Positions 12,324 through 60,921 of a DNA stretch of 64,000 nt are shown here, one piece after another. How positions within the stretch are numbered: the stretch's first letter is position 1; every line of letters starts with the position of its first letter. The position numbers were made by a program, and so were the translations under genes. The stretch is from assembly GCA_030704665.1 (NCBI GenBank), contig JAUYID010000009.1, forward strand, positions 394,460-458,459, read 5' to 3'. Source of the DNA: a bacterium (GTDB taxonomy: Bacteria > Patescibacteriota > Microgenomatia > Woykebacterales > RBG-16-39-9b). The notes below the pieces were generated by a model. The model searched no databases and was not told where the DNA came from. It saw only the letters and a list, made by a program, of their open reading frames with translations.

Positions 12324-12382
12324 TGTCATTCTGAAGCGAAGCTGAAGAATCTTGAGATCCTTCACTAGTCGTTCAGGATGAC
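12324..12382. repeat. ORF-less palindromic element (MITE-like derivative of the GIY-YIG element)
   Basis: TGTCATTCTGAAGCGAAGCTGAAGAATCTT followed by GAGATCCTTCACTAGTCGTTCAGGATGACG. The two arms are the left and right TIRs of the GIY-YIG elements fused without an ORF. It sits at the boundary of the GC-rich block. Confidence 0.7.
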
Positions 12383-12500
12383 GTTAGGGTGTTGAATAAG
12401 ACTATTTAAGTAACTTTCGGGTGAGTGTTCGGGAGTTCTTTCGGGTCCTTCGGGTGCGAGCTAGGTTGGTTAAAACCGTTTGTGCTCGCACCCTTGACCT

Positions 12501-15897: not shown

Positions 15898-16146
15898 GGC
15901 AGAGGAGACAGGTCGGTAGCCGTGGGAACAATTACCACTACCCACGGCTACCCTCGCCTAGTTTATCCTCTCTAAGTCAGGATCTTTTTGTCATTCTGAA
16001 TGTAATGAAGAATCTCTTTTCCTTCTATCACCCTTGCAGCCAATAGTGACAAAGCTTCTAGATCCTCGTTTTCACGAGGATGACGACTATCATTATTAAA
16101 AATAAGTAATTGGAAGATGAAAAGATCTCCCTCCTTTGAGTTCTTC

Positions 16147-16356
16147 TCATTTGACAAAACCGATGATACAGCCTTCTTCCCCGTAAACCGGCACATAACC
16201 CTCGGTTCGTTTTGGAGAATTGGCCCCAAGTTCACGGTTGCAATCACGGTGCATCACCCCGTCGTAAAGCACTCGCCCACCGACATAGACTGGTGAGAGG
16301 GTCAGAACCAAGATGGTTAACCAGAGTCTTAGTAGGTCTTTGCCGGAGTTGAACAA
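16147..16356 (-). CDS. small secreted Cys-containing protein
   Basis: 69 aa with a TTG start preceded by AAGGAGGG. N-terminal hydrophobic signal-like segment. Confidence 0.3.
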   Translation of the reverse strand: MFNSGKDLLRLWLTILVLTLSPVYVGGRVLYDGVMHRDCNRELGANSPKRTEGYVPVYGEEGCIIGFVK

Positions 16357-28702: not shown

Positions 28703-30496
28703 ATGTTTGCTGATCTGTCCATCATTTTTGACTTTCGTTTTAACCTCTACGCTCTACCTTCACTTCTGACGATCATTATTAATATTGTCCTTTTGCTTCT
28801 GATTCAGAGGCGTGGAGCAAAAAACCAAGCCAACCGTTGGTTCAGTTTGGTGCTCGGAGTTTTGGTTCTTTGGGGGATTTCGGAATTTCTCGATCGTTCC
28901 AGTGCCAACCCGACGACCTCTCTTTTTTGGGATTACGTCGGCCGTCCAGCTTGGATCGGACTGCCGACACTACTTTTTACTTTCGTTATTCATTTTACCG
29001 GCAGAGAAAGTTTTTTTCGCTCCCGCCTCAACCAGCTTCTGGTCTTTCTCCCTAGTTTGGTCTTTCTTTTTCTCGCCTGGAATACCAATGTCATTCTCAA
29101 CAACACTGTCAGCGATAACCACCCAGCTTTTTGGGGCTGGCAAATCTCACCACAAGCTGATCTCTACTCTCTTTTTCTTGTTTGGTTTAGCTTTTTGACG
29201 ATTGCTTCAGTAGGACTGTTGACCCGTTTTTATTTGCGTACCCCAGATTTGATCAACAAACGCCAAACTCTTTTTATCATCATCGGTACCTTGATTCCGA
29301 TTGTTGGTGGTTTGGTGACTGATGCGATTTTGCCAGCCTTGGGTGTAGAGACTGTTTTGCCCATTGCGGTTCTGCTTTCTTGTGGTTTGAGTCTGTCGAT
29401 TTCTTACGCGATTCTGCGTTATAGTCTTTTTGTGGTCAACCCAACACTGACTTCGGAAACAGTGCTGGATAACATGTCCGAGGCAATTTTTGTCATCCGT
29501 CCGAACAATATCGTCGAGCAAGTCAATAAAGCCATTTCGCGGCTTTTGGGTTTCAAAAAAGAAGAACTGATTGGAGCCAATGTCAGCCGAATTTTTTCTG
29601 ATCAGGAGACTTGGCAGAGATTTTCAGAAGAGATTTTGAAAAAATTGCCAGAGAAGGACGTGATCGCCAATTTCGAAACAAAATTTCGCAGCCGTCAAGG
29701 AGACAAAATACCAATCAGTTTTTCCGCAGCCGCTTTGAAGGAAGATGGACAAGTCCAAGGTATTGTCGGAATTGCTCGTGATGTGCGAGAAGAAAAACAA
29801 CTTGAGGAAATGAAACTCGATTTCGTTTCTATGGCAGCGCATCAACTCCGCACTCCCTTGACCGCTATCAGAGGCTATCTGTCTCTTCTTCAAGAGCAAA
29901 TTGCCGACAAATTGAGCCCGGATGAAAGAGCTTTTTTGACGAAAACTTCAATTGCTTCAAACCGGCTCGCTGCTTTGGTCGAAAATCTCCTTTCCGTTTC
30001 CGGAGTTGAGCACGGAGAAATCAAGATTTCCAAAAGCGAAGTCAACTGGGAGGATTTAATTGCCGAAGTGGTTGGGATTTTCAAACAAGAAGCAGAAACA
30101 CACAAAGTTGAGCTGGTTTTCCACAAACCGGAGAAGGAACTAGCCAAAATCTCGGTTGATAAATTTCGGATGAGTGAGGTTCTTTCCAATTTAATTAGCA
30201 ACGCTGTCGCTTACAACAAAGAGGGTGGCAAAGTTGAGGTCTTCGTGCGGGAAAAGGACGACCAAATCGTTACTTATGTTCGCGATACCGGCAGTGGAAT
30301 ACCAGCTGAAGATCTACCCAAACTTTTTAGCAAATTTTTTCACGTCTCCCGCTCTCTCGTGCAAGGAACCAAAGGTACCGGCCTGGGTCTCTACATTGCC
30401 AAAGGTTTGATTGAGGCACACGGAGGGAAAATTGAGGTTGAGTCAGAGCTAGGCAAAGGCAGTACTTTTTCTTTTTCGCTTCCGATTGGTAATTAA
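28703..30496 (+). CDS. sensor histidine kinase (7-TM sensor, PAS, HisKA, HATPase_c)
   Basis: H-box [20 protein letters not shown]-box [12 protein letters not shown] and G-boxes DTGSGIP / [18 protein letters not shown]. The N-terminus is polytopic. Confidence 0.85.
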
Positions 30497-30506
30497 AATC
30501 GTGTTA

Positions 30507-30839
30507 TGTCATCCTGAGCGATTAGCGAAGGATCTCGTCCCCCAAGTCTTTCCAAACCTGATTGTTGGTTTCTATTAAACTGATCTTTTTTGATCTCAGC
30601 CAACCTTTTATTCTCTTCTCGCTTTCAATAGCTTGACTTGAATTTTCAAATTCTTCAAAGAAAACAAGCTTATTCAGATTGTACTTTTTGCTAAACCCAT
30701 CGATCAGTTTATTTTTATTCTCAAAAAGTCTTCTTTTTAGATTGTTTGTAACACCTGTGTAGAGAACTCTGTTTAGCTTGTTGGTAATAATATAAACGTA
30801 ATAACTCATGAGATTCTTCAGCTCCGCCTCAGAATGACA
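30507..30839 (-). mobile_element. GIY-YIG element bounded by about 30-bp terminal inverted repeats
   Basis: Left arm TGTCATCCTGAGCGATTAGCGAAGGATCTC and right arm GAGATTCTTCAGCTCCGCCTCAGAATGACA are inverted repeats. The GIY-YIG ORF fills the space between them exactly: its ATG abuts the right arm and its last codons (EILR, stop) are encoded by the left arm. Confidence 0.7.
30522..30809 (-). CDS. GIY-YIG nuclease-family protein (95 aa)
   Basis: YYVYIITNKLNRVLYTGVTNNLKRRLFEH contains the GIY-YIG motifs and matches the COG2827/YhbQ-like small URI-domain proteins. Confidence 0.85.
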   Translation of the reverse strand: MSYYVYIITNKLNRVLYTGVTNNLKRRLFENKNKLIDGFSKKYNLNKLVFFEEFENSSQAIESEKRIKGWLRSKKISLIETNNQVWKDLGDEILR

Positions 30840-31339: not shown

Positions 31340-31396
31340 TGTCATTCTGAAGCTAGCTTCGATTACGAAACTAAGCGAGCGGAGCTGAAGAATCTC
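31340..31396. repeat. solo left-arm copy of the TIR with internal palindrome GAAGCTAGCTTC
   Basis: TGTCATTCTGAAGC..GAGCGGAGCTGAAGAATCTC. Followed by the motif TTGCTTGTCCAA, which also occurs at about 45450 and 55625. Confidence 0.55.
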
Positions 31397-36153: not shown

Positions 36154-36202
36154 CGGAAAGATTCTACCACTTTCAAAAAGAAGCTGACAATTGAGTTATT
36201 TC

Positions 36203-36254
36203 GTCATCCTCGCGTAGGTGAGGATCTAGATTCTCAGTCAAGCTGAGAATGACA
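36203..36254. repeat. palindromic element variant (two short hairpins, GTCATCC...GAATGACA ends)
   Basis: GTCATCCTCGCGTAGGTGAGGATCTAGATTCTCAGTCAAGCTGAGAATGACA. Same architecture as the copy at 55517. Confidence 0.55.
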
Positions 36255-41041: not shown

Positions 41042-41416
41042 TTAGACGACCCAACTTTCCAGTTTAAAGAAAATTTGAAAAAGACTGCTTAAAAGCAAAA
41101 CTACCACTGGAATGAGGAGGTAATAAAAATAAAACGGATGTTCAAGAATCGGAGTTAGGAAAGGCACGACACTGAAGGCAAAGAGCAGAAAAGGCAGGAC
41201 CAAAAGAATGATGGCAAACTGGACAGCCGCACGTAAGGTCGGGAAAGTGCGGTGAATGAAACTTTCAAAAACGAGCCATTGTAGTAGCGTCCGGCTGAAA
41301 AGAAAAACGAGAATAAAAGCCCCCAGATTGGGCTGATAGTTGGTACCAAACTGCAAAGCAGTGGCTGAGGCAAAGATAACTGTCAAACAGTCAATAAAAA
41401 CAAAAATATATTTCAT
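41042..41416 (-). CDS. small polytopic membrane protein
   Basis: The first ATG of the track ORF is contributed by the inverted-repeat element (ATGACA), so the start is set at the downstream MKYIFV. Confidence 0.35.
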   Translation of the reverse strand: MKYIFVFIDCLTVIFASATALQFGTNYQPNLGAFILVFLFSRTLLQWLVFESFIHRTFPTLRAAVQFAIILLVLPFLLFAFSVVPFLTPILEHPFYFYYLLIPVVVLLLSSLFQIFFKLESWVV

Positions 41417-41428
41417 GGCAGTAGTAAA

Positions 41429-41529
41429 TGTCATCCTGAACTTGGTTCAGGATCTAGAGATTCCGAAACGAGTCTTCGACCGTGAGCTCAGACCGAATCG
41501 GTTCGGAATGACACAAGGACGGGATGACA
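41429..41529. repeat. composite palindromic element (two nested hairpins with TGTCATCC...GGGATGACA ends)
   Basis: ATCCTGAAC/GTTCAGGAT and ATTCCGAAC/GTTCGGAAT stems. Confidence 0.55.
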
Positions 41530-41812
41530 AGTATTAAGCAAGTCCCTTTTTATCTTAAACTAAGAAGTCCAAAACAAGCAAGAATTACAATCTTTCTGGA
41601 AACTTTGCTATCTTTCTGTTGCTTGTTTGTTGCAGGCTTTTGAAAAAAGGTGTAAAAAATTTCTCGCAGCTCATCTCTGCACCAAACCGCAAGGTTTGGA
41701 GGACAGAGTAAAATCTGGACGGCAAGGTGGGCTGCATCAAGAAAACGATCTGAAAGTTTCGTAATAGCAATATTATGAAAAAAGAAGGTCGTTTTCTTTT
41801 GTTTTCAATGAC

Positions 41813-42211
41813 TCACTTCTGAATTTGTGGGATAGAACTTTGAGGAATTTTGCGGACTTTGACTTTTTTAAAGCCCAAAGAGCTTAGTTTAGCGAGTCGA
41901 TGCAGACCATCAAGTAGGAGCCACCGATTTTTCCAAAACATGATATCAAGTGGGTGTGTTAAATCCGCTGTTTCAACTCTAGCGAGGTGTTCTTTGTGCT
42001 TCTCGGGATGAGCAAGAACCTCACTGGGTTTCAAATCATAAAACCCATTAGTTGAGCCCCAAAACGGTATTTCGAAGTGCCAAGAAAGTTCGCCTATATC
42101 CATTTCTTCTACTGGTATATTTAAGGTCCAGACTTTGCCTTCGTCCCAAGAAAAATCAAAGCCAACTTCTTTAATTATTTTTGGTAGTTGTTTTTCAGTC
42201 ATGATTGCCAA
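41813..42211 (-). CDS. hypothetical protein, possibly ParB/Srx-fold
   Basis: LLLDGLHRLAKL resembles the DGHHR motif of ParB/sulfiredoxin domains. Confidence 0.3.
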   Translation of the reverse strand: MAIMTEKQLPKIIKEVGFDFSWDEGKVWTLNIPVEEMDIGELSWHFEIPFWGSTNGFYDLKPSEVLAHPEKHKEHLARVETADLTHPLDIMFWKNRWLLLDGLHRLAKLSSLGFKKVKVRKIPQSSIPQIQK

Positions 42212-42840
42212 CCGTACTTGCCGAGAAGAGGGACAAAATAAACTAGACCATGGCTAGTTTTTTCCAATCCGCCCGCGGTTTTAACTACTTTGGTGAGTTC
42301 TTGCTCCTGCCTACTTCCGACAGGAATGACGAGTCGGCCACCAACTTTGAGTTGTTCGACGAGATTTTGCGGGATTGTTGGAGAAGCAGCAGTGACGATG
42401 ATTGCTTCGTAAAGTGCCTCAGGATTGTAGCCCTCCGAGCCGTCACCGACAACTACCGTGACATTATCAATTCCTAGTTTCATCAAACGCAATTCGGCGC
42501 TCGCTGCTAGCTCTCGTTCATACTCAACAGTAAAAACCTGCCGAGCTAGTTGGGCGAGAATCGCAGCTTGGTAGCCGCTGCCGGTGCCAATTTCGAGGAC
42601 TTTGTCGCTTGCCTTCAAATCCAGAAGATCCGTCATCAGAGCAACGAGGGAAGGTTGGGAGATAGTTTGTCCTTTGCCAATGCCCAGGGCTTGGTCAGAA
42701 TAAGCAGCCTCTCGCAGCTCTGCGGGAACAAATTTGTCTCTGGGGAGGCGCGACATCGCGTCAAGGACCGGCTTACTTATCGGTAAGTGAAAAGAACCGA
42801 CCATGTACTGTGCTTGTTTAACTTTGGGAAGAACTCTCAT
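42199..42840 (-). CDS. pcm: protein-L-isoaspartate O-methyltransferase
   Basis: GQTISQPSLVALMTDLL and VLEIGTGSGYQAAILA are PIMT signature motifs. Confidence 0.85.
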   Translation of the reverse strand: MRVLPKVKQAQYMVGSFHLPISKPVLDAMSRLPRDKFVPAELREAAYSDQALGIGKGQTISQPSLVALMTDLLDLKASDKVLEIGTGSGYQAAILAQLARQVFTVEYERELAASAELRLMKLGIDNVTVVVGDGSEGYNPEALYEAIIVTAASPTIPQNLVEQLKVGGRLVIPVGSRQEQELTKVVKTAGGLEKTSHGLVYFVPLLGKYGWQS

Positions 42841-42856
42841 TTCTAAAAATAACTTT

Positions 42857-43654
42857 TTAAGAATCTTGACTAGCTAGTTCAACTGCGCCAACGAGGGTCG
42901 AATCGGCACCAAGAGCAGGGATGGCGATCAGAGGCAGCGGGTAAATTGTCAGAAAATCGCGGATTTTTTCTACCAAAGGCTCGAAGAAAGCCTCTTTGTT
43001 GGTGGTCAGTCCCCCGCCAATTATTACAACCTCCGGTGAGAAGTGAACGATTGAATTGGTAATGCCGCGGGCGAGTCGTTCCAAGACTTTGTCCCAGTCG
43101 GGAGTACCAACGATTTCGGCTGGGTCTTTGCCGTAAAGCTCTTTTAGGCCTGTACCAGAAGAAAGTTTTTCCAAATTTTTGTTAACACCGGTGACGATTT
43201 GCTGACCACCTTCAGGATTGTAGACTCCTTTGTAGATTTGGCCGCCCGCGACTAGACCAGTACCAATTCCGGTACTGACGGTGTAATAAAGGACTGGATC
43301 CTTCTCTTTTCCAGATCCGTAAAGCGATTCCGCCAAAGCTGCCAAAGAAGCGTCATGCTCAACTTTGACTTCAAGATCAAGTTCTTGGGAAAGAATTTCG
43401 CGCAAAGGTTGGTCGCGCCAAGTTGGGAGGTTCGGCAGGGCGCGTAGCAAACCAGTTTTGGTTTCGATCGGTCCAGGAATGGCCACCCCGACTTGAGCTT
43501 TTTGGTCCCCCGCCACTTCTCGAACACGACTGACAATTTCTCGTAGAGTTTCTTTAAATTCGAGAGTGGGAAAATCAAACTTCTTGTCAACTTTTCCAAG
43601 ATTTCCAGTCGCTATACGAGTGTGAGTGCCACCGATGTCAATACCGATGTTCAT
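42857..43654 (-). CDS. ROK-family sugar kinase/regulator
   Basis: MNIGIDIGGTHTRIA N-terminal ATPase motif and ROK-type central region. The start codon abuts the TIR of the GIY-YIG element. Confidence 0.8.
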   Translation of the reverse strand: MNIGIDIGGTHTRIATGNLGKVDKKFDFPTLEFKETLREIVSRVREVAGDQKAQVGVAIPGPIETKTGLLRALPNLPTWRDQPLREILSQELDLEVKVEHDASLAALAESLYGSGKEKDPVLYYTVSTGIGTGLVAGGQIYKGVYNPEGGQQIVTGVNKNLEKLSSGTGLKELYGKDPAEIVGTPDWDKVLERLARGITNSIVHFSPEVVIIGGGLTTNKEAFFEPLVEKIRDFLTIYPLPLIAIPALGADSTLVGAVELASQDS

Positions 43655-43659
43655 AGTGC

Positions 43660-43992
43660 TGTCATCCTGAGTGACTAGCGAAGGATCTCTTCTGCTAAGT
43701 CATTCAAATTAGGGTTTTTAGCTTGAATTAAATTTATCTTTTTAATTCTTAGCCAGCCTTTAATCTTCTTTTCTGCTCTCAAAGCGTCCTCAACATTGTT
43801 AAATTCTTCAAAGAAGATCAGCTTAGTTAGATTGTACCTCTTTGTAAACCCCTCAATCAATTCGCCTTTATGCTCCAAAACTCTCCGCTCCAGGTTGTTT
43901 GTTACTCCTGTGTACAGGGAAGTATTAGTTTTGTTAGTTAAAATATAAACGTAATAACCCACTAGATTCTTCGCCTTTAGCTCAGAATGACA
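43660..43992 (-). mobile_element. second GIY-YIG element bounded by TIRs
   Basis: Left arm TGTCATCCTGAGTGACTAGCGAAGGATCTC, right arm TAGATTCTTCGCCTTTAGCTCAGAATGACA. The ORF spans from the right arm (GTG start) to the left arm (EEILR, stop). Confidence 0.7.
43675..43962 (-). CDS. GIY-YIG nuclease-family protein (95 aa), paralogue of 30522..30809
   Basis: GYYVYILTNKTNTSLYTGVTNNLERRVLEHK; about 65 percent identical to the first copy. GTG start. Confidence 0.85.
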   Translation of the reverse strand: MGYYVYILTNKTNTSLYTGVTNNLERRVLEHKGELIEGFTKRYNLTKLIFFEEFNNVEDALRAEKKIKGWLRIKKINLIQAKNPNLNDLAEEILR

Positions 43993-44013
43993 CCCCTTTT
44001 TTACCAGGGGAGT

Positions 44014-44706
44014 TTATTTCACGGTAATTGGAAAGGTTTGCTCTTCGTAGAAAAAGGTGTAGTTTTTAGTGCTTTTCGGTAGAGACCCAAAAGCTATCTC
44101 ACCACTGATAGTCTCGCCTGGTTGCACACCTTGGTCCGGAATTCGGGTGAACCCAGTCGGTTTGGTGGTGCAATCGGCGGCTCCACCTTCAGTACAGACG
44201 GTTGTCGGTGGGTCGTAAGGGTTGCCGTAGGTGTGGTTTTGGGCATCCTTAAGCTTCATGGCGAACTTTGAATAGTAAAGAGGTTGGTCGGTGTTGTTTT
44301 TGATGTCCAAAGACATGATTATCTCGAGAGTGTCATCATCAGCCAGGTTCATAGGATCATCCCATTCTTTGACACTGTTTATTGTGATTGTTAGACTGCC
44401 TATTTCCTGATTGGCACTAGCGGTTGCCTCACGCAAGGCTTTGTCGAGGAAAGCGACTTTGGCAGCTAGATCGGCGTTCTTTTTTTCAACTTTGTTCAGC
44501 TTGTCGAGCTGTGAAGTGAGAGAGTCAACTTTGCTGTTGAGGTCCTTTTTGTCTTGGCTCAAACCAGCGACAAGCCCCTGCTGCCAAAGATAAACTGCAA
44601 TCGCAGCTATTAAAGCGAGAAAAATTGAAACAGCAGCGGTGATGAGAAGGGGTTTTTTGTTCTTGGGAGTTTTGGGCTGGCTCAGGTCAACTGTCTCCAT
44701 GGGCAA
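44014..44706 (-). CDS. membrane-anchored coiled-coil protein with C-terminal DUF4352-like beta domain
   Basis: TM helix, a coiled coil (LNSKVDSLTSQLDKLNKVEKKNADLAAKVAFLDKAL) and then a beta-rich domain. Confidence 0.45.
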   Translation of the reverse strand: MPMETVDLSQPKTPKNKKPLLITAAVSIFLALIAAIAVYLWQQGLVAGLSQDKKDLNSKVDSLTSQLDKLNKVEKKNADLAAKVAFLDKALREATASANQEIGSLTITINSVKEWDDPMNLADDDTLEIIMSLDIKNNTDQPLYYSKFAMKLKDAQNHTYGNPYDPPTTVCTEGGAADCTTKPTGFTRIPDQGVQPGETISGEIAFGSLPKSTKNYTFFYEEQTFPITVK

Positions 44707-44755
44707 AAACGATTATGCTTTATTAGCTAAGTCTTGTCAATGGAAGTTGAGAGTC

Positions 44756-45343
44756 TTATTCGGGTTGATCAACTTTAAGAGCTCGGTGCTCTTCTCGGAT
44801 GTGATGACGATCTTGCCGCAGATCAGCAATCAGACCGCCGATGAGCTTGTCAGGATCAGTATCGTAAATGATAGAACACTGATGTTTGTGGGCGATTTCA
44901 GTCAGTTCTTTGATTTCGTCAGCCATGCCTCCAGTCTCTTCCAAAACAGCCAAGGGTTTACGGTCTTCAAAGGCAACGGTAAATTCGTTCAAAGTCCCCA
45001 TCCGCCCGCCGATGGTGACGACCGCATCAGCCGAGCGCGTCAAAATCAAATTTCGTCCAGAGTAACCAAAACCAGTGTAAACAATGAGATCGAAATAATT
45101 GACCGGCAGGTGGTAGCGGTAAACGTGGTCTTGGTAAGTTGAAGCTGGTGAAAAGCCGATGCTAATACCCTTCGCTTCTTTGCAGCCAACGGCAGCGTAG
45201 TGCGGTAGGCCGGTAGTAGCACCGGTGATGAGGATACAATCTCGGGCAGCAATGGCACGGCCAAGTTCTTTAGCCTTTTCGGCGTTGTCGCGGTTTAGAG
45301 TTTCTCCGGCGGCAGCACCGGAAACGCAAATCTTGAATTTCAT
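44756..45343 (-). CDS. LOG/TIGR00725-family Rossmann-fold protein
   Basis: VTIGGRMGTLNEF matches the GGxGTxxE motif of LOG/SLOG proteins. Confidence 0.6.
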   Translation of the reverse strand: MKFKICVSGAAAGETLNRDNAEKAKELGRAIAARDCILITGATTGLPHYAAVGCKEAKGISIGFSPASTYQDHVYRYHLPVNYFDLIVYTGFGYSGRNLILTRSADAVVTIGGRMGTLNEFTVAFEDRKPLAVLEETGGMADEIKELTEIAHKHQCSIIYDTDPDKLIGGLIADLRQDRHHIREEHRALKVDQPE

Positions 45344-45404
45344 GGGCAGTACTTAAAATAACTTTACCACAATTTGGCTTTTTGGGAAAAACTAAAGTCG
45401 TAGC

Positions 45405-45566
45405 TGTCACTCTGAGCGTTGAGCGAAGAATCTCTTTCTCTACTTCTTTTGCTTGTCCAAAAAGAAGTAGACAAGAAAAAGACACCCTAGAGCTGCGTCA
45501 GCTGTTGCACTAAAAGCAAAAAGACTTCGGGACTTCCTCTGGAATTCTCTCACTTCGTTCGGTCAG
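45405..45566. repeat. extended TIR-derived element (left arm, internal hairpin, degenerate right arm)
   Basis: TGTCACTCTGAGCGTTGAGCGAAGAATCTC, then the hairpin CTACTTCTTTTGCTTGTCCAAAAAGAAGTAG, then ...ATTCTCTCACTTCGTTCGGTCAG. Confidence 0.5.
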
Positions 45567-45636
45567 TTCCAGTTTCCTCTTTGTCTTTTTGCTAGTTCAA
45601 AGACGCTGTCTTCGCTAAGGCAATTTAACTTAAACG

Positions 45637-46818
45637 TTATTTGATTCCGACCCAAGAAAGGAGAAAGAGGTTGTTGTTTTTTCTTTCAACCTCGAGTTTG
45701 TCGAGAGCGTCGTTTTGCTTACCGGCAAGAAACTCGAAGCCGGAAAGTGCTTCATTGCCTTTCCAAAAGCTGACTTGATCTGTTTGCAGACGCAAGGCTA
45801 AGGACTTTTCCTTTTCAAGCCAATTCTCAGCCGCTTGTGTCACCTTGCCTATTTTGTTCTTGTCCGAGCCAAAAGTAAGCTCTGTGAAGCTGTCAAGAAA
45901 ATCGACTGCTCCGTTGACTTCCTCCAAAATATCCTGATGAAAACTCGCCATCGCCACTGGCAAATTAGCCTCATTGATCTTGTTTAAACTTTCCGCAATA
46001 GCCTTGGCTTTGGTTAGGTTGCTCTTTGCCTTTTCTTGGCTACTACCTTGCAAGGATTCAATGATCATAGAAGATAAATCAACATAGGAGTTGGCGTAGG
46101 TCAGGTAGTACTGGGCAGTTTTTTCCGCTTCATTCAAATAATCTTGGGTATCTTCGCGCACATTGTCCAGGCTATCAGCAACTGGAGCGAGACGCGCACT
46201 AGTTGAGTTTTCTTTGACCAAACTCGAGAATTTATTGACCGAGGTGAGACCATCCTCACTGACCCGTTTAGCCGCTTGGGACAGCTCCAAAAGATTGCGG
46301 TAGCCCTTCAAAGGATCCAAATCTGGGGTTGAAAAACCCTTAACATTTTTGTTTTTGGCACTAGCTGTAGCTTCGTTAACTGCTTTTTTCAAAGCTAGAA
46401 AACTTAGCTCAGCTTTTTCCCCTCCTCCCCCACCGTTGGCAGTAAGTTCGATAGTACTAACTGTGGTTGAACTTGAAGAGTTGGTTACGTAGCTATAGAT
46501 TGCTTCGAGAGATTGGTTGACTTTAGCAGTCTTGTCACTGGTTTCGGCTAGAGCCTGCCGAGTAGTTTTGATGAAAGAAAGAGCGTTTACTCGAGGTAAA
46601 ATAGCGAAGAAAGTTATCCCTGCGCCAAGAGCCAAAACAAAGGCACCTGAGGCAAGGAGAACTTTGTTGATTCCGAAGACTTTGCCGCGCCCAACCACGG
46701 TTGGAACGGTGCCCTCTCTCTGGTGAAAAAAACTGGAAGGGTGGTCCATGGGAGTGCCACAGACGTGACAGAAGTGATCAGTCGGGGCGATTTGAGTTCC
46801 ACAATTGCGGCATTCCAT
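45637..46818 (-). CDS. membrane protein with N-terminal zinc ribbon
   Basis: MECRNCGTQIAPTDHFCHVCG, then a TM helix and a long helical ectodomain. Confidence 0.45.
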   Translation of the reverse strand: MECRNCGTQIAPTDHFCHVCGTPMDHPSSFFHQREGTVPTVVGRGKVFGINKVLLASGAFVLALGAGITFFAILPRVNALSFIKTTRQALAETSDKTAKVNQSLEAIYSYVTNSSSSTTVSTIELTANGGGGGEKAELSFLALKKAVNEATASAKNKNVKGFSTPDLDPLKGYRNLLELSQAAKRVSEDGLTSVNKFSSLVKENSTSARLAPVADSLDNVREDTQDYLNEAEKTAQYYLTYANSYVDLSSMIIESLQGSSQEKAKSNLTKAKAIAESLNKINEANLPVAMASFHQDILEEVNGAVDFLDSFTELTFGSDKNKIGKVTQAAENWLEKEKSLALRLQTDQVSFWKGNEALSGFEFLAGKQNDALDKLEVERKNNNLFLLSWVGIK

Positions 46819-47226
46819 AAGCTCATCTAATTTAGACTAAAGATTGGCTGCTTGTCAAAGATTAATTAAAGAGTTGGAGATTGGTTGGGAAGGAGTGTGC
46901 GAGGTCCTTCCCGGTTGTGTGTTGTTTTGGTTACCTTCGCACTTAGGTATCTGAATCGGCTTCATCGATCTCGCCGCCGCCTTCTAGGAGGTTAAGCAAG
47001 ATGAGTTCCGGCAAGAAGAAACCGACCGTACTTCCTACTCCAAACCACAGCAAGATCTCATGTAAGGCAGGTAGCTGTCGGGGCTGGGCTGGATTGATCC
47101 AATGCGCTCTTACCAGAGCTGCGGCCAAACCCGGACCAGTGATTGCAGCTCCGCCCAAATGGAGACCCAGAATCACACGGAATGGTTTTTTCAAAGTCGT
47201 CCCTCCTAACCTTTTCTTGGCTGGCT

Positions 47227-47442
47227 TTAGCGGTTGATTGGAACGAAGAGGAAAAAAAGGCCCAAAGCCAAAATTACCCCTCCGATGGCGGTGAAGCCGA
47301 AAGCAAAACCGCTTTCCTGCCCAGAGCTGATACTAAGGTAGATGACGACGCTTCCGACTACCGCAGCTACCAAACAGGTGAGACTGAAGAGATTCCTCCG
47401 GTTCAGGTCACTCTGTCGGGTTCGACCAAGATTGCGATCCAT
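47227..47442 (-). CDS. small 2-TM membrane protein (71 aa)
   Basis: Start set at MDRNLGRT. The N-terminal extension in the track reads through the terminator palindrome and is rejected. Confidence 0.35.
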   Translation of the reverse strand: MDRNLGRTRQSDLNRRNLFSLTCLVAAVVGSVVIYLSISSGQESGFAFGFTAIGGVILALGLFFLFVPINR

Positions 47443-47528
47443 GCACTTGCTCCCCTTCTGAAAGTGAAATCCCTTTCCGATATGAAAATTATACTCTAGG
47501 GAAGCAAGGTTTATTTGTGAATTATGTG

Positions 47529-47559
47529 TGAAAAACAAAATGTCCACCCGACGGGTGGA
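47529..47559 (-). terminator. intrinsic terminator (TGTCCACCCG..CGGGTGGACA) of the 47615 gene
   Basis: GC-rich palindrome followed on the minus strand by TTTTGTTTTTC. A near-identical copy lies at 55465-55487. Confidence 0.55.
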
Positions 47560-47614
47560 CAAAGGTTATCAGGAGTGTTGGGCAGGTGTTGGACGGGCCC
47601 TCTACTCCTTTGTC

Positions 47615-47845
47615 CTACTTGTTAACACTTTTCCGAATGGTGTCCACGATCGAAAAGGTTGCATAGAGAATCGTTAAGAGGAAAAAGGATGCTCCTGCAA
47701 GAACGATCACCGAGTAACCGGGGTTGTCGAGGACGATAGCTGCGGAAGTAACAAGAAACCCATATGAAACAAGGGCGCTTCCTAGTACTATGTCGGCGAC
47801 CGGAGACTCTTTTCTGGACCCTGAGGTCCTACTTTTCTGAATCAC
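47615..47845 (-). CDS. small membrane protein
   Basis: 76 aa with 2 TM helices. Confidence 0.35.
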   Translation of the reverse strand: MIQKSRTSGSRKESPVADIVLGSALVSYGFLVTSAAIVLDNPGYSVIVLAGASFFLLTILYATFSIVDTIRKSVNK

Positions 47846-47943
47846 GATCTTTCTCCTTGAGGTAGTAGCAGAAAAAGAGGTGCGTGCTCTTTTCCTGCCT
47901 TGGGTTGTTGGAACCTATCAGACGACGCACTAGATTTTCGATC

Positions 47944-48378
47944 TCACTCCTTCCGGGCTGCGGTCTTCTTGGCGGCGGGCTTGGTTTTGACCGTCATCGA
48001 GCTGAAGCTCTTGGGCCGTCCACGTCTCTGTACTGCTTTGGTCAGGTAGCCTTCAGCCGACTGACGGACGAAGCGGCGCACCGCGGTCGAGAAGGTAAAG
48101 TGGACTCCACAGCTTGGGCAGATGAAAACGAAGCTCCAACGCGACCTTCTGAAGGTGCCGTTCAGGTCTTCGAATAGCGCATTAAGCTCCTTGGCGCGGA
48201 GATCGCTGACCTTGAGACTTTTCTCCTCGTGACCTAGCCGCAGATAGCTAGCTATATCGTAGCGGATTTTGTCCCAGCCACGGCAACCTTCGGCTTGGCG
48301 TGGACAGCTGATACGGCCGTCCATCAGAAGACCTGCCTCATCGTACTTTGCGTGTAGGGTCAGAATAAACTCAAGCAT
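47944..48378 (-). CDS. hypothetical Cys-rich protein with basic tail
   Basis: CPRQAEGC and CPSCG clusters; C-terminal KPAAKKTAARKE. Confidence 0.35.
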   Translation of the reverse strand: MLEFILTLHAKYDEAGLLMDGRISCPRQAEGCRGWDKIRYDIASYLRLGHEEKSLKVSDLRAKELNALFEDLNGTFRRSRWSFVFICPSCGVHFTFSTAVRRFVRQSAEGYLTKAVQRRGRPKSFSSMTVKTKPAAKKTAARKE

Positions 48379-48415
48379 GATTCTCCTTCTTCCTCCACCG
48401 ATCAGGTGGGCTGAG

Positions 48416-48958
48416 TCAGTCGTTGCCTGACGGTGTTGTGCTCAAGGATCGCTCAAGCGTACGGATCTCATGGCGTTGCGCCAGTATTGTTCGGCCGACT
48501 CGGTACAAGGACCGATTTCCTTGCTCGTGGATCTCATCGAGGCGGACTTTGACAAGCCCGTTTGGAGACAGTTCCCGGATCGTGGCACGTGCAACCAGGT
48601 GATACTCACCAGTGCCTCCGACAAACTTGATTCGGTCTCCAACCTTCATGGAAAAGCTCAACCGAGCTTGTTCAAGAACGTACTCCTTTAGCCCTTCAAG
48701 TTGTGTTGGTTGTCTCAGTCCCCTTGAGACGACACAATAAATGAGAGCGAAGGGTGTTAGTGCCGCTGCCATTGAACTACCAAAGAAGATGGTGGGTATG
48801 GCTAGAGGCGTAGGTATGGCCGGACCATGCTTGTCAGGCCTCATTAGCTCCCCTACCTTTTCTGGGCGAAAGATAAGGAGGTGGATAGTCAGGCCCATAC
48901 CTCCCAGAGCTGACAGAGCGAGATAGACTTTTGCTGCTCGGGCCAAAAGCCTTTTCAA
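48416..48958 (-). CDS. membrane-anchored hypothetical protein
   Basis: 180 aa with two N-terminal TM helices. Confidence 0.35.
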   Translation of the reverse strand: MKRLLARAAKVYLALSALGGMGLTIHLLIFRPEKVGELMRPDKHGPAIPTPLAIPTIFFGSSMAAALTPFALIYCVVSRGLRQPTQLEGLKEYVLEQARLSFSMKVGDRIKFVGGTGEYHLVARATIRELSPNGLVKVRLDEIHEQGNRSLYRVGRTILAQRHEIRTLERSLSTTPSGND

Positions 48959-49079
48959 GAGATCACCTCCATAGTTTCTTCCGATGATACTACTCCCGTT
49001 TCAGTTAGGAGTATTATACGTCGAGCTAGCAAACAAGAGTTATAATGAGAGCAACGAAGAGTGAGAAAGGAAGAAAGCA

Positions 49080-49466
49080 GTGAACGTGTGGATTGTGACC
49101 CAGGGACGAGGTGCAAGACGGTTCATCGAAAGATTGGCTGCTGATGAAAGCATTCACGTCAATCCAGCGATGGAAAGAAAGGGCTTGGAGACGATTCTCA
49201 AAGACCCAAAGCTCTGTGCTGAGATGGACGCGCTCATCATTCATGGCGATGTGCTTGTGAGGGCAACTTGGGTTGATCCAGAACTGATCGGTCAGTTGAA
49301 ACTCCTCTCTTTTTGGAAAGAGAAGGTCGAGGTGATCCTCTTTTTCACCAACAAACGTACTGAGTCAAGTCTGCGCCGTTTCGCGTCAGGCTTTCGTTTT
49401 GTTGCCCATCCGGCTGATCCAGGTGATCTCTACGAGCAAGTGAAAGCACTCGCGGTGCGGAGCTGA
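49080..49466 (+). CDS. hypothetical protein
   Basis: GTG start after AAAGGAAG and a GTTATAAT -10-like box. 128 aa. Confidence 0.35.
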   Translation: MNVWIVTQGRGARRFIERLAADESIHVNPAMERKGLETILKDPKLCAEMDALIIHGDVLVRATWVDPELIGQLKLLSFWKEKVEVILFFTNKRTESSLRRFASGFRFVAHPADPGDLYEQVKALAVRS

Positions 49467-49485
49467 AAGAAGGAGAAGAAGAACC

Positions 49486-49833
49486 ATGGTCAAGACCGCG
49501 ACGAAAAAGCCTGTTGGGAAGAAAGCCCGCAAGGCAGTCTCTCGGGTAGCGGGAAGAAAGATCCGTGTCCAGCGCAAGCCGAAGGTCTACCTGAACGTAG
49601 GCATTGAGGTTTTCTCCGAGGAAGACGGGAGCTTGGTGAGAGCGGCTCTTCCAAAACCAGTTCCCGAGGTTTTAGCTGCAGGCAAGATTCTTCGTAGAGC
49701 CAAACAATATGCAAAGAAGCTCTGCAAGGAAAGAGGACGCACCTTCGCTAAGGTAGGCATCAGGTACATCACGCCAGTGTCCAGTCCTTCAGGAATTGTG
49801 CGCAGTCCTCGTTCCCACAAGGGTGGTCCCTGA
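49486..49833 (+). CDS. basic (Lys/Arg-rich) histone-like hypothetical protein
   Basis: KKPVGKKARKAVSRVAGRKIRVQRKPK N-terminus. Confidence 0.35.
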   Translation: MVKTATKKPVGKKARKAVSRVAGRKIRVQRKPKVYLNVGIEVFSEEDGSLVRAALPKPVPEVLAAGKILRRAKQYAKKLCKERGRTFAKVGIRYITPVSSPSGIVRSPRSHKGGP

Positions 49834-49868
49834 TCACCCTTCCCCCTCCCTTTAATTTAAGTACGGGT

Positions 49869-50288
49869 TTAGTCGTTGAGGATTTTAAAAAGCCTTTCCC
49901 TTTCTTCTTTCGGTAGATCTAAATAGAGGGGTGTGCGGTGCTTGTCGATTTTCTCATAAATCTCATCTCCGAGTTCTCTGGGAATGATATGAAAGTGAAG
50001 GTGGTTGACGTGGATGCGGCTTTCGGCCATGTAAGGTTTAAAATTTTGACGTATCTCAGTCCCACTTGCCAATTTATCAAGAATTCTCTCTTGAAAGAGA
50101 GACAAAAAGTCTAGAATCTCACTTTTCTCTTTTTCCGAAAGTTCAATGAGTTTTTCAATGTGTCTCTTGGGGATGACCAGGAGGTGTCCGGGAGCGACGC
50201 GGGGGTTGCTGAAAATCACGTAGGAGAATTCCCCTTCTTTCAAAGTCCGGCTTTGGGTTTCTGGACTACAAAAAGGACAAATAATCAT
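49869..50288 (-). CDS. HIT-family hydrolase
   Basis: Histidine triad HVNHLHFHIIPR. Confidence 0.8.
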   Translation of the reverse strand: MIICPFCSPETQSRTLKEGEFSYVIFSNPRVAPGHLLVIPKRHIEKLIELSEKEKSEILDFLSLFQERILDKLASGTEIRQNFKPYMAESRIHVNHLHFHIIPRELGDEIYEKIDKHRTPLYLDLPKEERERLFKILND

Positions 50289-50319
50289 TTGGGTAAATAA
50301 TAACGGAACTGGAGGTAAA

Positions 50320-50428
50320 TGTCATTCTGAGCGCTTAGCGAAGAATCTAAAAGAGATCTTTCACGGAGCCTGCACTTGAGACTCTTCACTTCGTTCAGAG
50401 TGACAGAGTCGAAGTGTTCAGGATGACA
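50320..50428. repeat. nested composite of TIR-derived palindromes
   Basis: TGTCATTCTGAGCGCTTAGCGAAGAATCT, then GAGATCTTTCACGG..., then GAGACTCTTCACTTCGTTCAGAGTGACA, ending ...TTCAGGATGACA. Confidence 0.6.
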
Positions 50429-50750
50429 ACTTGGGTTTCTAGGTAATAAAAGAAGGTGAGGGTGAGGTTGCCGCCTTGAGAAATGATTCTTGGTGGCAAC
50501 CCCAGTTTGTCTCTCCGCTCCTGATACCAGCTAAGTTCAGGTTACCTCGAAAGGTGCCCGACTGCGGTTAACTCCGCGATGACAGGAACGGAGGAGACGG
50601 CGGGTGGTTGTGGCAGCGTGTCAGTGCAGAACCTTGCGGTCACTTTTGCTCATAGGTAGGGTCACCGTGAGGCGTCTGCGAACACAACCACCCTAAGACG
50701 AACGGAAGGATCCCTCTCCCGCTATCCTCCTTGCGATCCACTTCTCCTTC

Positions 50751-51101
50751 TCAGCACTTGGGCCGACTGCGTTTACCGGCCTTACTGAAACGCTTGAGCG
50801 TCCCGATCACCGGATCTTCGGCTTCTTCCGTGTTGAAGATGATGCGGCACTTCCTGCAGTAGGTGTCGGATACATTGAACGGGTCGCTAAACATCCGTAG
50901 ACCTGCCAGTAAGTCGCTGACTGCCTGCGGTAGAGAAAAGACTCGGACGTGAATTGCCAAGTCGTGTTTCCCTCTATCGACTGGACAGGGCCAGTCCGGA
51001 AGTTTGGCCATCCGTTGTTGAAGAGCCTTGCCGACTTCTCCGGTCGGGGTGATGTTTGTATCCCCACCCATTCCCCGGTTCAGCTTGGTTGCTAAAACCA
51101 T
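50751..51101 (-). CDS. hypothetical protein
   Basis: 116 aa with a Cys pair. Low confidence. Confidence 0.3.
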   Translation of the reverse strand: MVLATKLNRGMGGDTNITPTGEVGKALQQRMAKLPDWPCPVDRGKHDLAIHVRVFSLPQAVSDLLAGLRMFSDPFNVSDTYCRKCRIIFNTEEAEDPVIGTLKRFSKAGKRSRPKC

Positions 51102-51196
51102 GATCCTTCCTCTCCTTCTAACTACCGTTGATTAAAAAGATTATACTGCGAGATCGCAAACAATGTGGATATTTAAAAAAGCTTAAATTTTGCCAT

Positions 51197-51248
51197 GAAA
51201 AAGCCCGATGATCAGTGGTTGCTCACGTTGCAACTTGATCGATCGGGC
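51197..51248 (-). terminator. intrinsic terminator of the helicase gene
   Basis: Stem GCCCGAT...ATCGGGC followed on the minus strand by TTTTTCATGG. Confidence 0.5.
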
Positions 51249-51292
51249 TCCGCGCTTTTGGAATGAGGTGCGCGTTTTCCTCTTTTGTCTCT

Positions 51293-55516: not shown

Positions 55517-55604
55517 CTGTCACCCTCGAGAAATCGAGGATCTAGATTCTCAGTAGAGCGCTACACACTCTGCGCTTGATTACAATCTTCAAGCTGAGAA
55601 TGAC
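55517..55604. repeat. palindromic element variant with 40-nt internal insertion
   Basis: TGTCACCCTCGAGAAATCGAGGATCTAGATTCTCAG...CAAGCTGAGAATGACG. Same architecture as the copy at 36203. Confidence 0.55.
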
Positions 55605-55722
55605 GATTAATAAGCTAGTTGCTTGTCCAAAAGAAACCTTAAAATTAAAAAGACTTCCTTTGGGAAACGGTCTTCCAGGGGGTGGAAAACCGGATCTCTC
55701 TTCCTGTCACAAGCGGTTTGGT

Positions 55723-57394: not shown

Positions 57395-57476
57395 TGTCAT
57401 CCTGAGTGTTAACGAAGGATCTCTGAGGTTCTAGCGGAATATGAACTTGAGACTCTTCGCCCTGCTAAAAGTGACA
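57395..57476. repeat. ORF-less TIR pair (left arm plus variant right arm GAGACTCTTCGCCCTGCTAAAAGTGACA)
   Basis: TGTCATCCTGAGTGTTAACGAAGGATCTC on the left. Confidence 0.6.
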
Positions 57477-60861: not shown

Positions 60862-60921
60862 TGTCATTCTGAGGCGAAGCCGAAGAATCTCTTGAGATCC
60901 TTCGTTGCACTCAGGATGACA
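60862..60921. repeat. archetypal ORF-less TIR pair (MITE-like)
   Basis: TGTCATTCTGAGGCGAAGCCGAAGAATCTC-tt-GAGATCCTTCGTTGCACTCAGGATGACA. This is the GIY-YIG element with its ORF precisely removed. Confidence 0.7.

What the first reader, a model, noticed from the sequence alone, without database searches (positions are those of the whole stretch)
43660..43992. Second GIY-YIG plus TIR unit inserted directly against the start codon of the ROK kinase gene
The structure matches the 30.5-kb unit: the GTG start abuts the TAGATTCTTCGCCTTTAGCTCAGAATGACA arm, and the stop lies within the TGTCATCCTGAGTGACTAGCGAAGGATCTC arm. The left arm ends 5 nt before the ATG of the ROK gene at 43654. The element therefore now supplies the immediate 5' region, and possibly the ribosome-binding context, of a housekeeping gene. 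The two GIY-YIG proteins are about 65 percent identical, so they are diverged paralogues and not a recent duplication.
Basis: seen in the sequence. Interest (0 to 1): 0.7.

Follow-up and report, generated by a model that had tools for sequence, protein, structure and literature searches.

The report
Ssn nuclease gene with hairpin repeats
The small GIY-YIG gene beside the ROK kinase gene belongs to the Ssn family of single-stranded-DNA nucleases described in 2025, and its "terminal inverted repeats" are two of at least 23 copies of the hairpin repeat that such nucleases recognise, so it is a real but already known kind of system, here in a candidate-phyla-radiation bacterium.

Summary
A 95-aa GIY-YIG ORF (43675-43962, minus strand, GTG start) lies between two inverted 30-nt arms. 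Its stop codon is inside the left arm, which ends 5 nt from the ROK start codon (43654). A second unit at 30.5 kb has the same layout, and the two proteins are 63% identical.

The arms are not private transposon ends. They are copies of a dispersed hairpin repeat, (C/T)GTC-AT...AT-C, found about 23 times in the window, always between genes: as singles, as tag-outward pairs, and flanking both GIY-YIG genes.

This is the Ssn/SRM system of Chenal et al. 2025 (PMC11893778). The repeats also fit the "CGTC-tagged REPs" of Di Nocera et al. 2013. The protein is 42% identical over its full length (E=3e-17) to a 94-aa Neisseria gonorrhoeae ORF surrounded by NTS repeats, which I take to be the SsnA orthologue. 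Y6, Y17 and E64 are conserved.

Eight orthologous ROK loci (63-70% identical) carry neither the gene nor the repeats, so the unit is lineage-specific at this site. Active transposition is unproven: there is no target-site duplication and there are no near-identical copies.

The hairpin variant here (GA/GA internal loop) is missed by the published search motif, yet it occurs in 72 of 80 homologous loci from many phyla.

Verdict: new member of a known kind; modest interest.

The parts
43675..43962 (-). ssn copy 1: a 95-aa single-domain GIY-YIG nuclease of the Ssn family, with a GTG start
   Evidence: ORF. Pfam PF01541, E=1.1e-16. 42% identity, 98% coverage, E=3e-17 to a 94-aa N. gonorrhoeae ORF embedded in NTS repeats, inferred to be the SsnA orthologue. 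Y6, Y17 and E64 are invariant.
43963..43992 (-). Upstream SRM hairpin unit, T-type (TGTCATTCTGAGCTAAAGGCGAAGAATCTA). It is in the sense orientation and its tail abuts the GTG start codon.
   Evidence: The hairpin is predicted. Covariation of the repeat family is shown.
43660..43689 (+). Downstream SRM hairpin unit, C-type (TGTCATCCTGAGTGACTAGCGAAGGATCTC). It is antisense to ssn, contains the ssn stop codon and the last four codons (EILR), and its TGTC tag points toward ROK.
43655..43659 (.). 5-nt spacer between the SRM tag and the ROK start codon. By analogy with SsnA, which cuts a few nucleotides 5' of the tag, the plus-strand ssDNA cut would fall here or within the ROK start codon.
   Evidence: Sequence. 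The cut position is inferred from PMC11893778 and was not tested.
42857..43654 (-). ROK-family sugar kinase gene, immediately downstream of the unit and in the same direction
   Evidence: PF00480, E=2.6e-37. Orthologues at 63-70% identity lack the unit.
44014..44706 (-). DUF4352 gene upstream of the unit. Its stop codon is 21 nt from the upstream SRM. A promoter-like site lies at 44740..44712 (minus strand).
30522..30809 (-). ssn copy 2: 95 aa, ATG start, 63% identical to copy 1
30810..30839 (-). Upstream T-type SRM of copy 2. It abuts the ATG and lies 2 nt after the stop codon of the GNAT-like gene.
30507..30536 (+). Downstream C-type SRM of copy 2. It contains the TAA stop codon and lies 10 nt after the stop codon of the convergent 597-aa ORF 28703..30496 (histidine-kinase-like by eye, not scanned).
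12324..12383 (.). Gene-less SRM pair (T-type on the plus strand, C-type on the minus strand), tags outward
15989..16085 (.). SRM pair with a 42-nt spacer. The right unit, CGTCATCCTCGTGAAAACGAGGATCTAG, is the only unit in the window that fits the published SRM search motif.
31340..31396 (+). Single SRM with an enlarged upper stem and loop
32864..32891 (-). Single SRM
36202..36254 (.). Adjacent SRM pair, tags outward. Both stems are fully Watson-Crick.
41429..41513 (.). Adjacent SRM pair. The left unit overlaps the listed start of ORF 41042..41434.
45405..45434 (+). Single SRM (TGTCACTCTGAG...GAAGAATCTC)
50320..50428 (.). SRM cluster: one plus-strand unit and two overlapping minus-strand units
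55518..55605 (.). Adjacent SRM pair. The right unit has a long insertion in its upper stem.
57395..57423 (+). Single SRM
60862..60921 (.). SRM pair with a 2-nt spacer. It folds as one long hairpin (-14.5 kcal/mol, z=-3.7).

Best explanation
The unit is an ssn gene with its cognate SRM hairpin repeats, that is, the Ssn/SRM system described in Neisseria in 2025, here in a candidate-phyla-radiation (Woykebacteria-like) genome.

Shown here:
- The protein is a full-length homologue of a 94-aa N. gonorrhoeae ORF embedded in NTS repeats, inferred to be the SsnA orthologue. The residues mutated in the paper are conserved.
- The flanking 30-nt arms are two of about 23 intergenic copies of a covariation-supported hairpin. 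Each copy has a 5' (C/T)GTC tag and a 3' C, the positions that the paper found critical for cutting and binding.
- The unit is absent from the orthologous ROK loci of the nearest available relatives.

Inferred by homology:
- The protein binds the hairpin only as single-stranded DNA, and only on the strand that reads TGTC...ATC.
- It nicks a few nucleotides 5' of the tag. For this unit that means just outside each end, on opposite strands. One of these positions is at the ROK start codon, on the non-coding strand.

Inferred from the layout:
- The unit entered the 26-nt gap between DUF4352 and ROK at some time in this lineage.
- ssn is now probably co-transcribed with DUF4352, ROK and PCMT.
- The gene-less tag-outward pairs are repeat-only derivatives or relatives of the same unit.

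The cellular role here is not shown. By analogy it is either control of recombination of incoming single-stranded DNA that carries the repeats, or maintenance and spread of the repeats.
For: - Family identity: tblastn hit to N. gonorrhoeae NZ_CP119140.1, 42% identity, 98% coverage, E=3e-17. That locus holds a 94-aa ORF among 12 NTS-like units in 1.5 kb.
- Alignment A1 is collinear, with Y6, Y17, R27 and E64 invariant.
- The paper defines Ssn as a roughly 94-aa single-domain GIY-YIG flanked by hairpin repeats, cutting only ssDNA just upstream of the repeat.
- Repeat census and enrichment. All units are intergenic.
- Hairpin covariation on 91 distinct 28-nt units: 98.1% of cells paired, 6 of 7 pairs with compensatory changes, score 0.478 against 0.188 (0/500 shuffles), slid controls 0.05-0.10.
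- Upper-stem complementarity: 82% of units against 8% in shuffles.
- The same repeat variant occurs in 72 of 80 homologous loci from many phyla. It lies in the sense orientation upstream of the start in 28, antisense at or after the stop in 45, and both in 19. It also flanks the Planktothrix plasmid homologue.
- The unit is absent from 8 orthologous ROK loci.
Against: - No biochemistry was done on this protein or this hairpin variant.
- The flanking units do not match the published degenerate SRM motif.
- Single GA-type units fold only weakly with DNA parameters (-1.8 to -3.6 kcal/mol, z -1.9 to +0.9). For the left arm the predicted optimum is not the expected hairpin.
- The CDD assignment (cd10448) used by the authors could not be run.
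- The relatives that lack the unit are distant (63-70% ROK identity), so loss in those lineages is not excluded.
- Identification of the N. gonorrhoeae ORF as the SsnA orthologue rests on its length, its NTS context and the species, not on an accession match.
Confidence: 0.82

Rival explanations
1. The unit is an autonomous, insertion-sequence-like transposon in which the GIY-YIG protein acts as the mobilising nuclease and the two arms are its ends. The gene-less pairs are its miniature, non-autonomous derivatives (analogous to REPINs and RAYTs). The unit recently landed 5 nt upstream of ROK.
For: - The tag-outward layout would place the predicted cuts just outside both ends.
- All 8 inverted pairs in the window share that orientation and the same T-type/C-type make-up as the gene-bearing pairs.
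- The unit is absent at orthologous ROK loci.
- Homologues at 51-68% identity occur in many phyla, and the two copies in this genome are not each other's closest relatives. This suggests horizontal spread.
- The authors of PMC11893778 themselves note the IS-like architecture.
Against: - There is no target-site duplication at either unit (flanks).
- There are no near-identical copies: the proteins are 63% identical and the arms 73% complementary.
- From general knowledge, GIY-YIG enzymes hydrolyse DNA without a covalent intermediate, so strand transfer would need other factors.
- The recognised sites lie on opposite strands, unlike the IS200/IS605 ends.
- No empty or filled polymorphism was found in close relatives; an exact 25-mer of the ROK 5' end has no match in metagenome contigs.
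- Only 1 of 2.9 million viral contigs carries a homologue.
Confidence: 0.25
2. The repeats act mainly at the RNA level, as stabilising, terminating or translation-modulating hairpins at gene ends. Their position around the GIY-YIG gene would then be incidental or autoregulatory.
For: - All units are intergenic and close to gene ends.
- The hairpin is conserved with covariation.
- The reversed unit places an AGGA 10 nt before the ROK ATG, and the forward C-type unit carries AAGGA.
- Di Nocera et al. 2013 argued that many REPs are transcribed.
Against: - SsnA binds the DNA hairpin but not RNA.
- The units occur in both orientations relative to the neighbouring genes.
- No T-run follows them, and the terminator scan does not flag them.
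- There is no Rfam match.
- The strict conservation of the unpaired GTC tag and the 3' C matches the nuclease's recognition requirements rather than RNA stability.
Confidence: 0.1
3. The gene is a free-standing GIY-YIG homing endonuclease that targets double-stranded DNA at a specific site.
For: Weak matches to homing-endonuclease models: TIGR01453, E=2e-4, below its cut-off; phrog_7168, E=9e-4.
Against: - It is only 95 aa, with the GIY-YIG domain spanning residues 3-77 and no DNA-binding domain.
- The matches cover only about 30 residues of the catalytic motif.
- There is no intron, intein or phage context.
- The closest characterised relative acts on ssDNA only.
Confidence: 0.03

Closest known systems
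Ssn nuclease family with SRM/NTS repeats (Chenal et al., Nat Commun 2025, PMC11893778)
   Same: - A single-domain GIY-YIG protein of about 94 aa with Y6, Y17 and E64 conserved.
- The gene is flanked on both sides by inverted hairpin repeats.
- The repeat has an unpaired (C/T)GTC tag 5' of the palindrome and a C 3' of it.
- The repeat occurs in many intergenic copies.
   Different: - The host is a CPR bacterium, a group not mentioned in the paper.
- The hairpin is a variant: a 5-bp ATYCT/AGRAT stem, a GA/GA internal loop, then a variable 2-8 bp upper stem. The published motif misses it (1 window unit and 4 of 80 loci match).
- The repeats abut the start codon and overlap the stop codon.
- There are two diverged copies in one genome.
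- Activity is untested.
CGTC-tagged repetitive extragenic palindromes (Di Nocera et al., BMC Genomics 2013, PMC3733652)
   Same: - A CGTC or TGTC tag.
- The stem starts with A-T, T-A.
- A short unpaired tail.
- Mostly organised as inverted dimers, often heterodimers.
- Intergenic location.
   Different: - That paper reported no dedicated enzyme; here, and in the 2025 paper, the repeats flank a GIY-YIG gene.
- The tail is CTC/CTA rather than CCA.
- The loop is about 3 nt and the stem is interrupted by GA/GA.
REPtrons: RAYT (Y1 transposase) genes flanked by inverted REPs, with REPIN doublets
   Same: One small nuclease gene is flanked by two inverted hairpin repeats, and many gene-less singles and doublets are dispersed between genes.
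   Different: The enzyme is GIY-YIG, not an HUH/Y1 transposase. The tag is GTC rather than GTAG. No covalent-intermediate chemistry is expected.
IS200/IS605 insertion sequences
   Same: A small element in which an ssDNA hairpin is recognised by the encoded nuclease, with no target-site duplication.
   Different: IS200/IS605 ends are recognised on the same strand and are not inverted repeats. The enzyme family differs. Transposition is proven for IS200/IS605 but not here.
UPF0213/YhbQ-type small GIY-YIG proteins (PDB 1ZG2, B. halodurans BH0048)
   Same: A stand-alone GIY-YIG domain of about 100 aa. It is the only solved relative found by sequence (E=1.8e-6).
   Different: By my recollection of CDD, this is a different subfamily (cd10456, against cd10448 for Ssn); this was not checked here. 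No repeat association is known.

Membership tests
Ssn nuclease family (cd10448) | Single-domain GIY-YIG protein of about 90-100 aa | tested here: met
   95 aa, with PF01541 covering residues 3-77 and no other domain.
Ssn nuclease family (cd10448) | Sequence homology to Neisseria SsnA (the paper's criterion is E<1e-10) | tested here: met
   tblastn against the N. gonorrhoeae chromosome record: 42% identity, 98% coverage, E=3e-17. The target is a 94-aa ORF among 12 NTS units. That this ORF is the SsnA orthologue is inferred from its length and context.
Ssn nuclease family (cd10448) | The catalytic and cofactor residues mutated in the paper (Y6, Y17, E64) are conserved | tested here: met
   Invariant columns Y6, Y17 and E64 in alignment A1, which includes the Neisseria sequence.
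Ssn nuclease family (cd10448) | Gene flanked on both sides by SRM hairpin repeats | tested here: met
   Units at 43963-43992 and 43660-43689, and likewise around copy 2.
Ssn nuclease family (cd10448) | The repeats match the published degenerate SRM motif HGTCWYN(0-2)YYVSBRHN(0-5)WNVSBRGN(0-2)RNCYNB | tested here: not met
   Only 16058-16085 (minus strand) matches. The four gene-flanking units do not, because of the GA/GA interruption. The motif is a search tool and not a definition of the family. The functionally critical GTC tag and 3' C are present.
Ssn nuclease family (cd10448) | CDD assignment to cd10448 | not testable with these tools
   No CDD/rpsblast is available. NCBIfam has no specific model.
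Ssn nuclease family (cd10448) | Site-specific cleavage of ssDNA only, a few nucleotides 5' of the repeat | not testable with these tools
   Needs biochemistry.
CGTC-tagged REPs | An unpaired CGTC/TGTC tag, a stem beginning with A-T, T-A, and a short tail | tested here: met
   All units. In alignment A2, G2, T3, C4, A5, T25 and C26 are invariant, although the extraction pattern fixed them.
CGTC-tagged REPs | Stem of 8-9 bp, loop of 4-5 nt | tested here: inconclusive
   Some units fit (16059: 8 bp with a GAAA loop; 41429: 9 bp). Most have 5 bp, then GA/GA, then 2-3 bp, with a 3-nt loop.
Insertion sequence / TIR transposon | Encodes a recognised transposase | tested here: not met
   The only gene in the unit is a 95-aa GIY-YIG nuclease with no transposase domain.
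Insertion sequence / TIR transposon | Target-site duplication, or multiple near-identical copies | tested here: not met
   The flanks are AGTGC / CCCCT and GTGTTA / GGTTAG. The copies are 63% identical.
Insertion sequence / TIR transposon | Presence/absence polymorphism at orthologous sites | tested here: inconclusive
   Absent in 8 orthologous loci, but these are distant relatives. No same-species sequence was found.
GIY-YIG homing endonucleases | A GIY-YIG domain plus a C-terminal DNA-binding domain, in an intron or phage context | tested here: not met
   There is no extra domain. TIGR01453 scores 21.5 bits against a cut-off of 56. The context is chromosomal.

The most novel reading that the evidence does not exclude
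SRM-ssn-SRM is, or recently was, a self-mobilising element of a new mechanistic class, driven by a GIY-YIG single-strand nuclease that cuts just outside two tag-outward hairpins. The T-type/C-type hairpin doublets would be its miniature derivatives. The element would spread across bacterial phyla including CPR, and here it has been captured into an operon, where it provides the 5' context of the ROK gene.
Probability: 0.25. Interest if true: 0.7.

Novelty: new member of a known kind. Interest (0 to 1): 0.3.

Why it matters
- It extends the recently discovered Ssn/SRM system to a reduced-genome CPR bacterium with a high repeat density, about one unit per 2.8 kb in this window.
- A very widespread hairpin variant (GA/GA internal loop, variable upper stem) is missed by the published search motif. 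Published counts of Ssn-repeat association are therefore probably underestimates.
- The uniform tag-outward, heterotypic pairing of gene-bearing and gene-less doublets, together with absence of the unit at orthologous loci, gives concrete, testable material for the open question of whether these units are mobile.
- For annotation, it explains the many spurious small ORFs and C-terminal tails that these repeats produce.

Tried and rejected
- Rfam, at gathering thresholds over the whole window and at permissive E-values on 43550-44100, gave nothing relevant.
- NCBIfam, PADLOC and PHROGs gave no specific family.
- An exact-protein look-up of ROK and a single-protein scan of genome contigs found nothing. 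Relatives were reached through the protein search instead.
- An exact 25-mer of the ROK 5' end has no match in metagenome contigs, so no same-species empty site was available.
- Viral contigs yielded one homologous locus only, so phage carriage was rejected as the main vehicle.
- Thermodynamic folding of single units was uninformative; covariation was used instead.
- The promoter and terminator scan was not above chance (3 against 1.8, and 2 against 1.9).
- The Shine-Dalgarno survey was inconclusive.
- The paper's supplementary files are not held, so the Nm SsnA sequence could not be taken from it.
- A chance inverted repeat and a homing endonuclease were both considered and rejected.

Full report
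**Observation**

- A 95-aa ORF (43675..43962, minus strand, GTG start) matches the GIY-YIG catalytic domain: PF01541, E=1.1e-16, residues 3-77, with no other domain.
- Its start codon abuts the 30-nt arm at 43963-43992.
- Its TAG stop codon (43675-43677) and last four codons (EILR) lie inside the arm at 43660-43689.
- Five nucleotides separate that arm from the ATG of a ROK-family kinase gene (42857..43654, PF00480, E=2.6e-37).
- The arms are 22/30 complementary. The repeat finder reports 34 nt at 74%.
- The unit at 30.5 kb has the same layout: ORF 30522..30809, arms 30507-30536 and 30810-30839.
- The two proteins are 63% identical.

**The arms are copies of a dispersed hairpin repeat**

The arm 12-mer TGTCATYCTGAG, with up to 1 mismatch, occurs 16 times in the window against 0.75 expected. 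Pattern and hairpin scans bring the count to about 23 units.

- All units lie between long ORFs.
- They occur as singles: 31340, 32864, 45405, 57395.
- They occur as inverted pairs without a gene: 12324/12354, 15989/16059, 36202/36227, 41429/41457, 50320/50378, 55518/55543, 60862/60894.
- They flank both GIY-YIG genes.
- Every pair has its (C/T)GTC tags pointing outward.
- Every pair combines a T-type unit (ATTCT...AGAAT) with a C-type unit (ATCCT...AGGAT, or a close variant). In both gene-bearing units the T-type lies at the start codon and the C-type at the stop codon.

Each unit is itself a hairpin:

- an unpaired tag (C/T)GTC;
- a lower stem A-T/Y-N-C-T;
- a conserved GA opposite GA;
- a variable upper stem and loop;
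- then ATC plus 2 nt.

Nearest-neighbour folding of single units is weak, but comparative evidence is strong.

- Among 218 distinct units from the window and 81 related loci, 82% have at least 2 Watson-Crick pairs at the ends of the variable insert, against 8% after shuffling. Stems reach 8 bp.
- On 91 distinct 28-nt units, 98.1% of cells pair and 6 of 7 pairs show compensatory changes. The covariation score is 0.478 against 0.188 in shuffles (0/500), and 0.05-0.10 when the partner columns are slid.

**What it is**

The literature search identified the system.

Di Nocera et al. 2013 (PMC3733652) defined "CGTC-tagged REPs". These have a CGTC or TGTC tag, a stem starting with A-T, T-A, a short tail, and mostly occur as inverted dimers. 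The authors stated that no dedicated enzyme was known.

Chenal et al. 2025 (PMC11893778) reported the following:

- The Neisseria version of this repeat (NTS, CGTCATTCCCGCGMAVGCGGGAATCYRG) is bound, as single-stranded DNA only and on one strand only, by SsnA, a 94-aa single-domain GIY-YIG protein.
- SsnA cuts a few nucleotides upstream of the tag.
- The three bases before the palindrome govern cutting, and the C after it governs binding.
- 71% of homologues have such repeats nearby and 42% have them on both sides.
- The NTS-ssnA-NTS layout resembles an insertion sequence, but mobility is only hypothesised.

The window protein belongs to this family.

- tblastn finds a 94-aa ORF in a N. gonorrhoeae chromosome (filed among the plasmid records) at 42% identity, 98% coverage and E=3e-17.
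- That ORF sits among 12 NTS-like units in 1.5 kb. I infer it is the SsnA orthologue.
- The alignment is collinear, and Y6, Y17 and E64, the residues mutated in the paper, are invariant.
- The window repeats keep the GTC tag and the 3' C.

**Breadth**

- A genome-contig scan found more than 591 relatives. The best 80 come from many phyla (Patescibacteria, Cyanobacteriota, Chloroflexota, Planctomycetota, Bacteroidota, Proteobacteria and others) at 51-68% identity.
- The window-type repeat is present in 72 of the 80 loci. It lies in the sense orientation within 60 nt upstream of the start codon in 28, antisense at or after the stop codon in 45, and both in 19.
- The published degenerate SRM motif matches only one unit in the window (16058-16085) and only 4 of the 80 loci. 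This GA/GA variant therefore escapes that search pattern.
- A Planktothrix plasmid homologue (64% identical) is flanked by nearly the same units.
- Only one of 2.9 million viral contigs carries a homologue.

**Is it an insertion?**

The window comes from an NCBI metagenome-assembled genome with a 938-kb contig. Its ROK protein is closest to Candidatus Woykebacteria-like sequences.

Eight loci with ROK orthologues at 63-70% identity keep the neighbourhood LDcluster4 - NAGPA - DUF4352 - ROK - (MIP) - PCMT. Between DUF4352 and ROK they carry one of three things: a 54-nt spacer, an HhH-GPD gene, or another gene. None has an ssn gene or any repeat unit.

The unit is therefore specific to this lineage at this site, which fits insertion. 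Several points keep active transposition unproven:

- The relatives are distant.
- No same-species sequence was found.
- There is no target-site duplication.
- The two copies are old. Ninety-five of the other 120 proteins compared (119 database homologues plus ssn1's own database entry) are closer to copy 1 than copy 2 is.

**Likely working**

By homology, the protein binds the hairpin on the strand reading TGTC...ATC and nicks single-stranded DNA just 5' of the tag.

- For this unit the two predicted cut zones lie just outside each end, on opposite strands.
- One is at about 43650-43659, over the ROK start codon on the non-coding strand.
- The other is at about 43993-44002.

The genes DUF4352, ssn, ROK and PCMT run in the same direction, with gaps of 21+30, 20 and 16 nt. 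A promoter-like site (TTGACA-17-CATAAT) lies upstream of DUF4352. The scan as a whole is not above chance, so co-transcription is an inference.

The reversed repeat places AGGA 10 nt before the ROK ATG. Only 12 of 45 long ORFs show a comparable motif, so the ribosome-binding claim stays open.

**Verdict**

The finding is real and accurately described. It is a member of a system published in 2025, not a new kind of element. The added points are:

- the CPR host;
- the repeat variant missed by the published motif;
- the uniform heterotypic, tag-outward doublets;
- the absence of the unit at orthologous loci.

Noticed in passing
window 12324-12383, 15989-16085, 36202-36254, 41429-41513, 50320-50428, 55518-55605, 60862-60921: All gene-less repeat doublets are heterotypic (one ATTCT-type and one ATCCT-type unit) with tags outward. 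This is the same make-up and orientation as the pairs that flank the two ssn genes, as if they were gene-less versions of the same unit.
   Followed up: partly
window 16058-16085 (-): This is the only unit with an uninterrupted 8-bp stem and a GAAA loop (CGTCATCCTCGTGAAAACGAGGATCTAG). It fits the published SRM motif and resembles the Neisseria NTS, and it coexists with the GA/GA variant units.
   Followed up: partly
window 31340-31396 (+), 41457-51513 region 41457-41513 (-), 55543-55605 (-): These units have long insertions (28-35 nt) in the upper stem or loop while keeping the tag, lower stem and tail. The loop evidently tolerates large insertions.
   Followed up: no
window 15972-16247 (-) and 41340-41537 (+): These short ORFs are built largely from repeat units and are probably spurious. 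In several homologous loci the ssn ORF reads through the downstream repeat (gap of -26), giving repeat-encoded C-terminal tails.
   Followed up: partly
L010 (Planktothrix agardhii plasmid NZ_LR882964.1, 18256-19716): A 64%-identical ssn homologue with the same repeat variant sits between a type IIL MmeI restriction-modification gene and the DISARM helicase gene drmA, that is, inside a defence-gene neighbourhood.
   Followed up: no
window 41429-41434: The CAT of a repeat's TGTCAT tag is the listed ATG start of ORF 41042..41434 on the minus strand. An in-frame ATG six codons downstream (MKYIF...) may be the real start. The tags can create apparent start codons.
   Followed up: no
NZ_CP119140.1 and NZ_CP119142.1 in the plasmid collection: Two 2.17-Mb Neisseria gonorrhoeae records are filed as plasmids but have the size of the chromosome. 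One carries only 12 annotated features.
   Followed up: no
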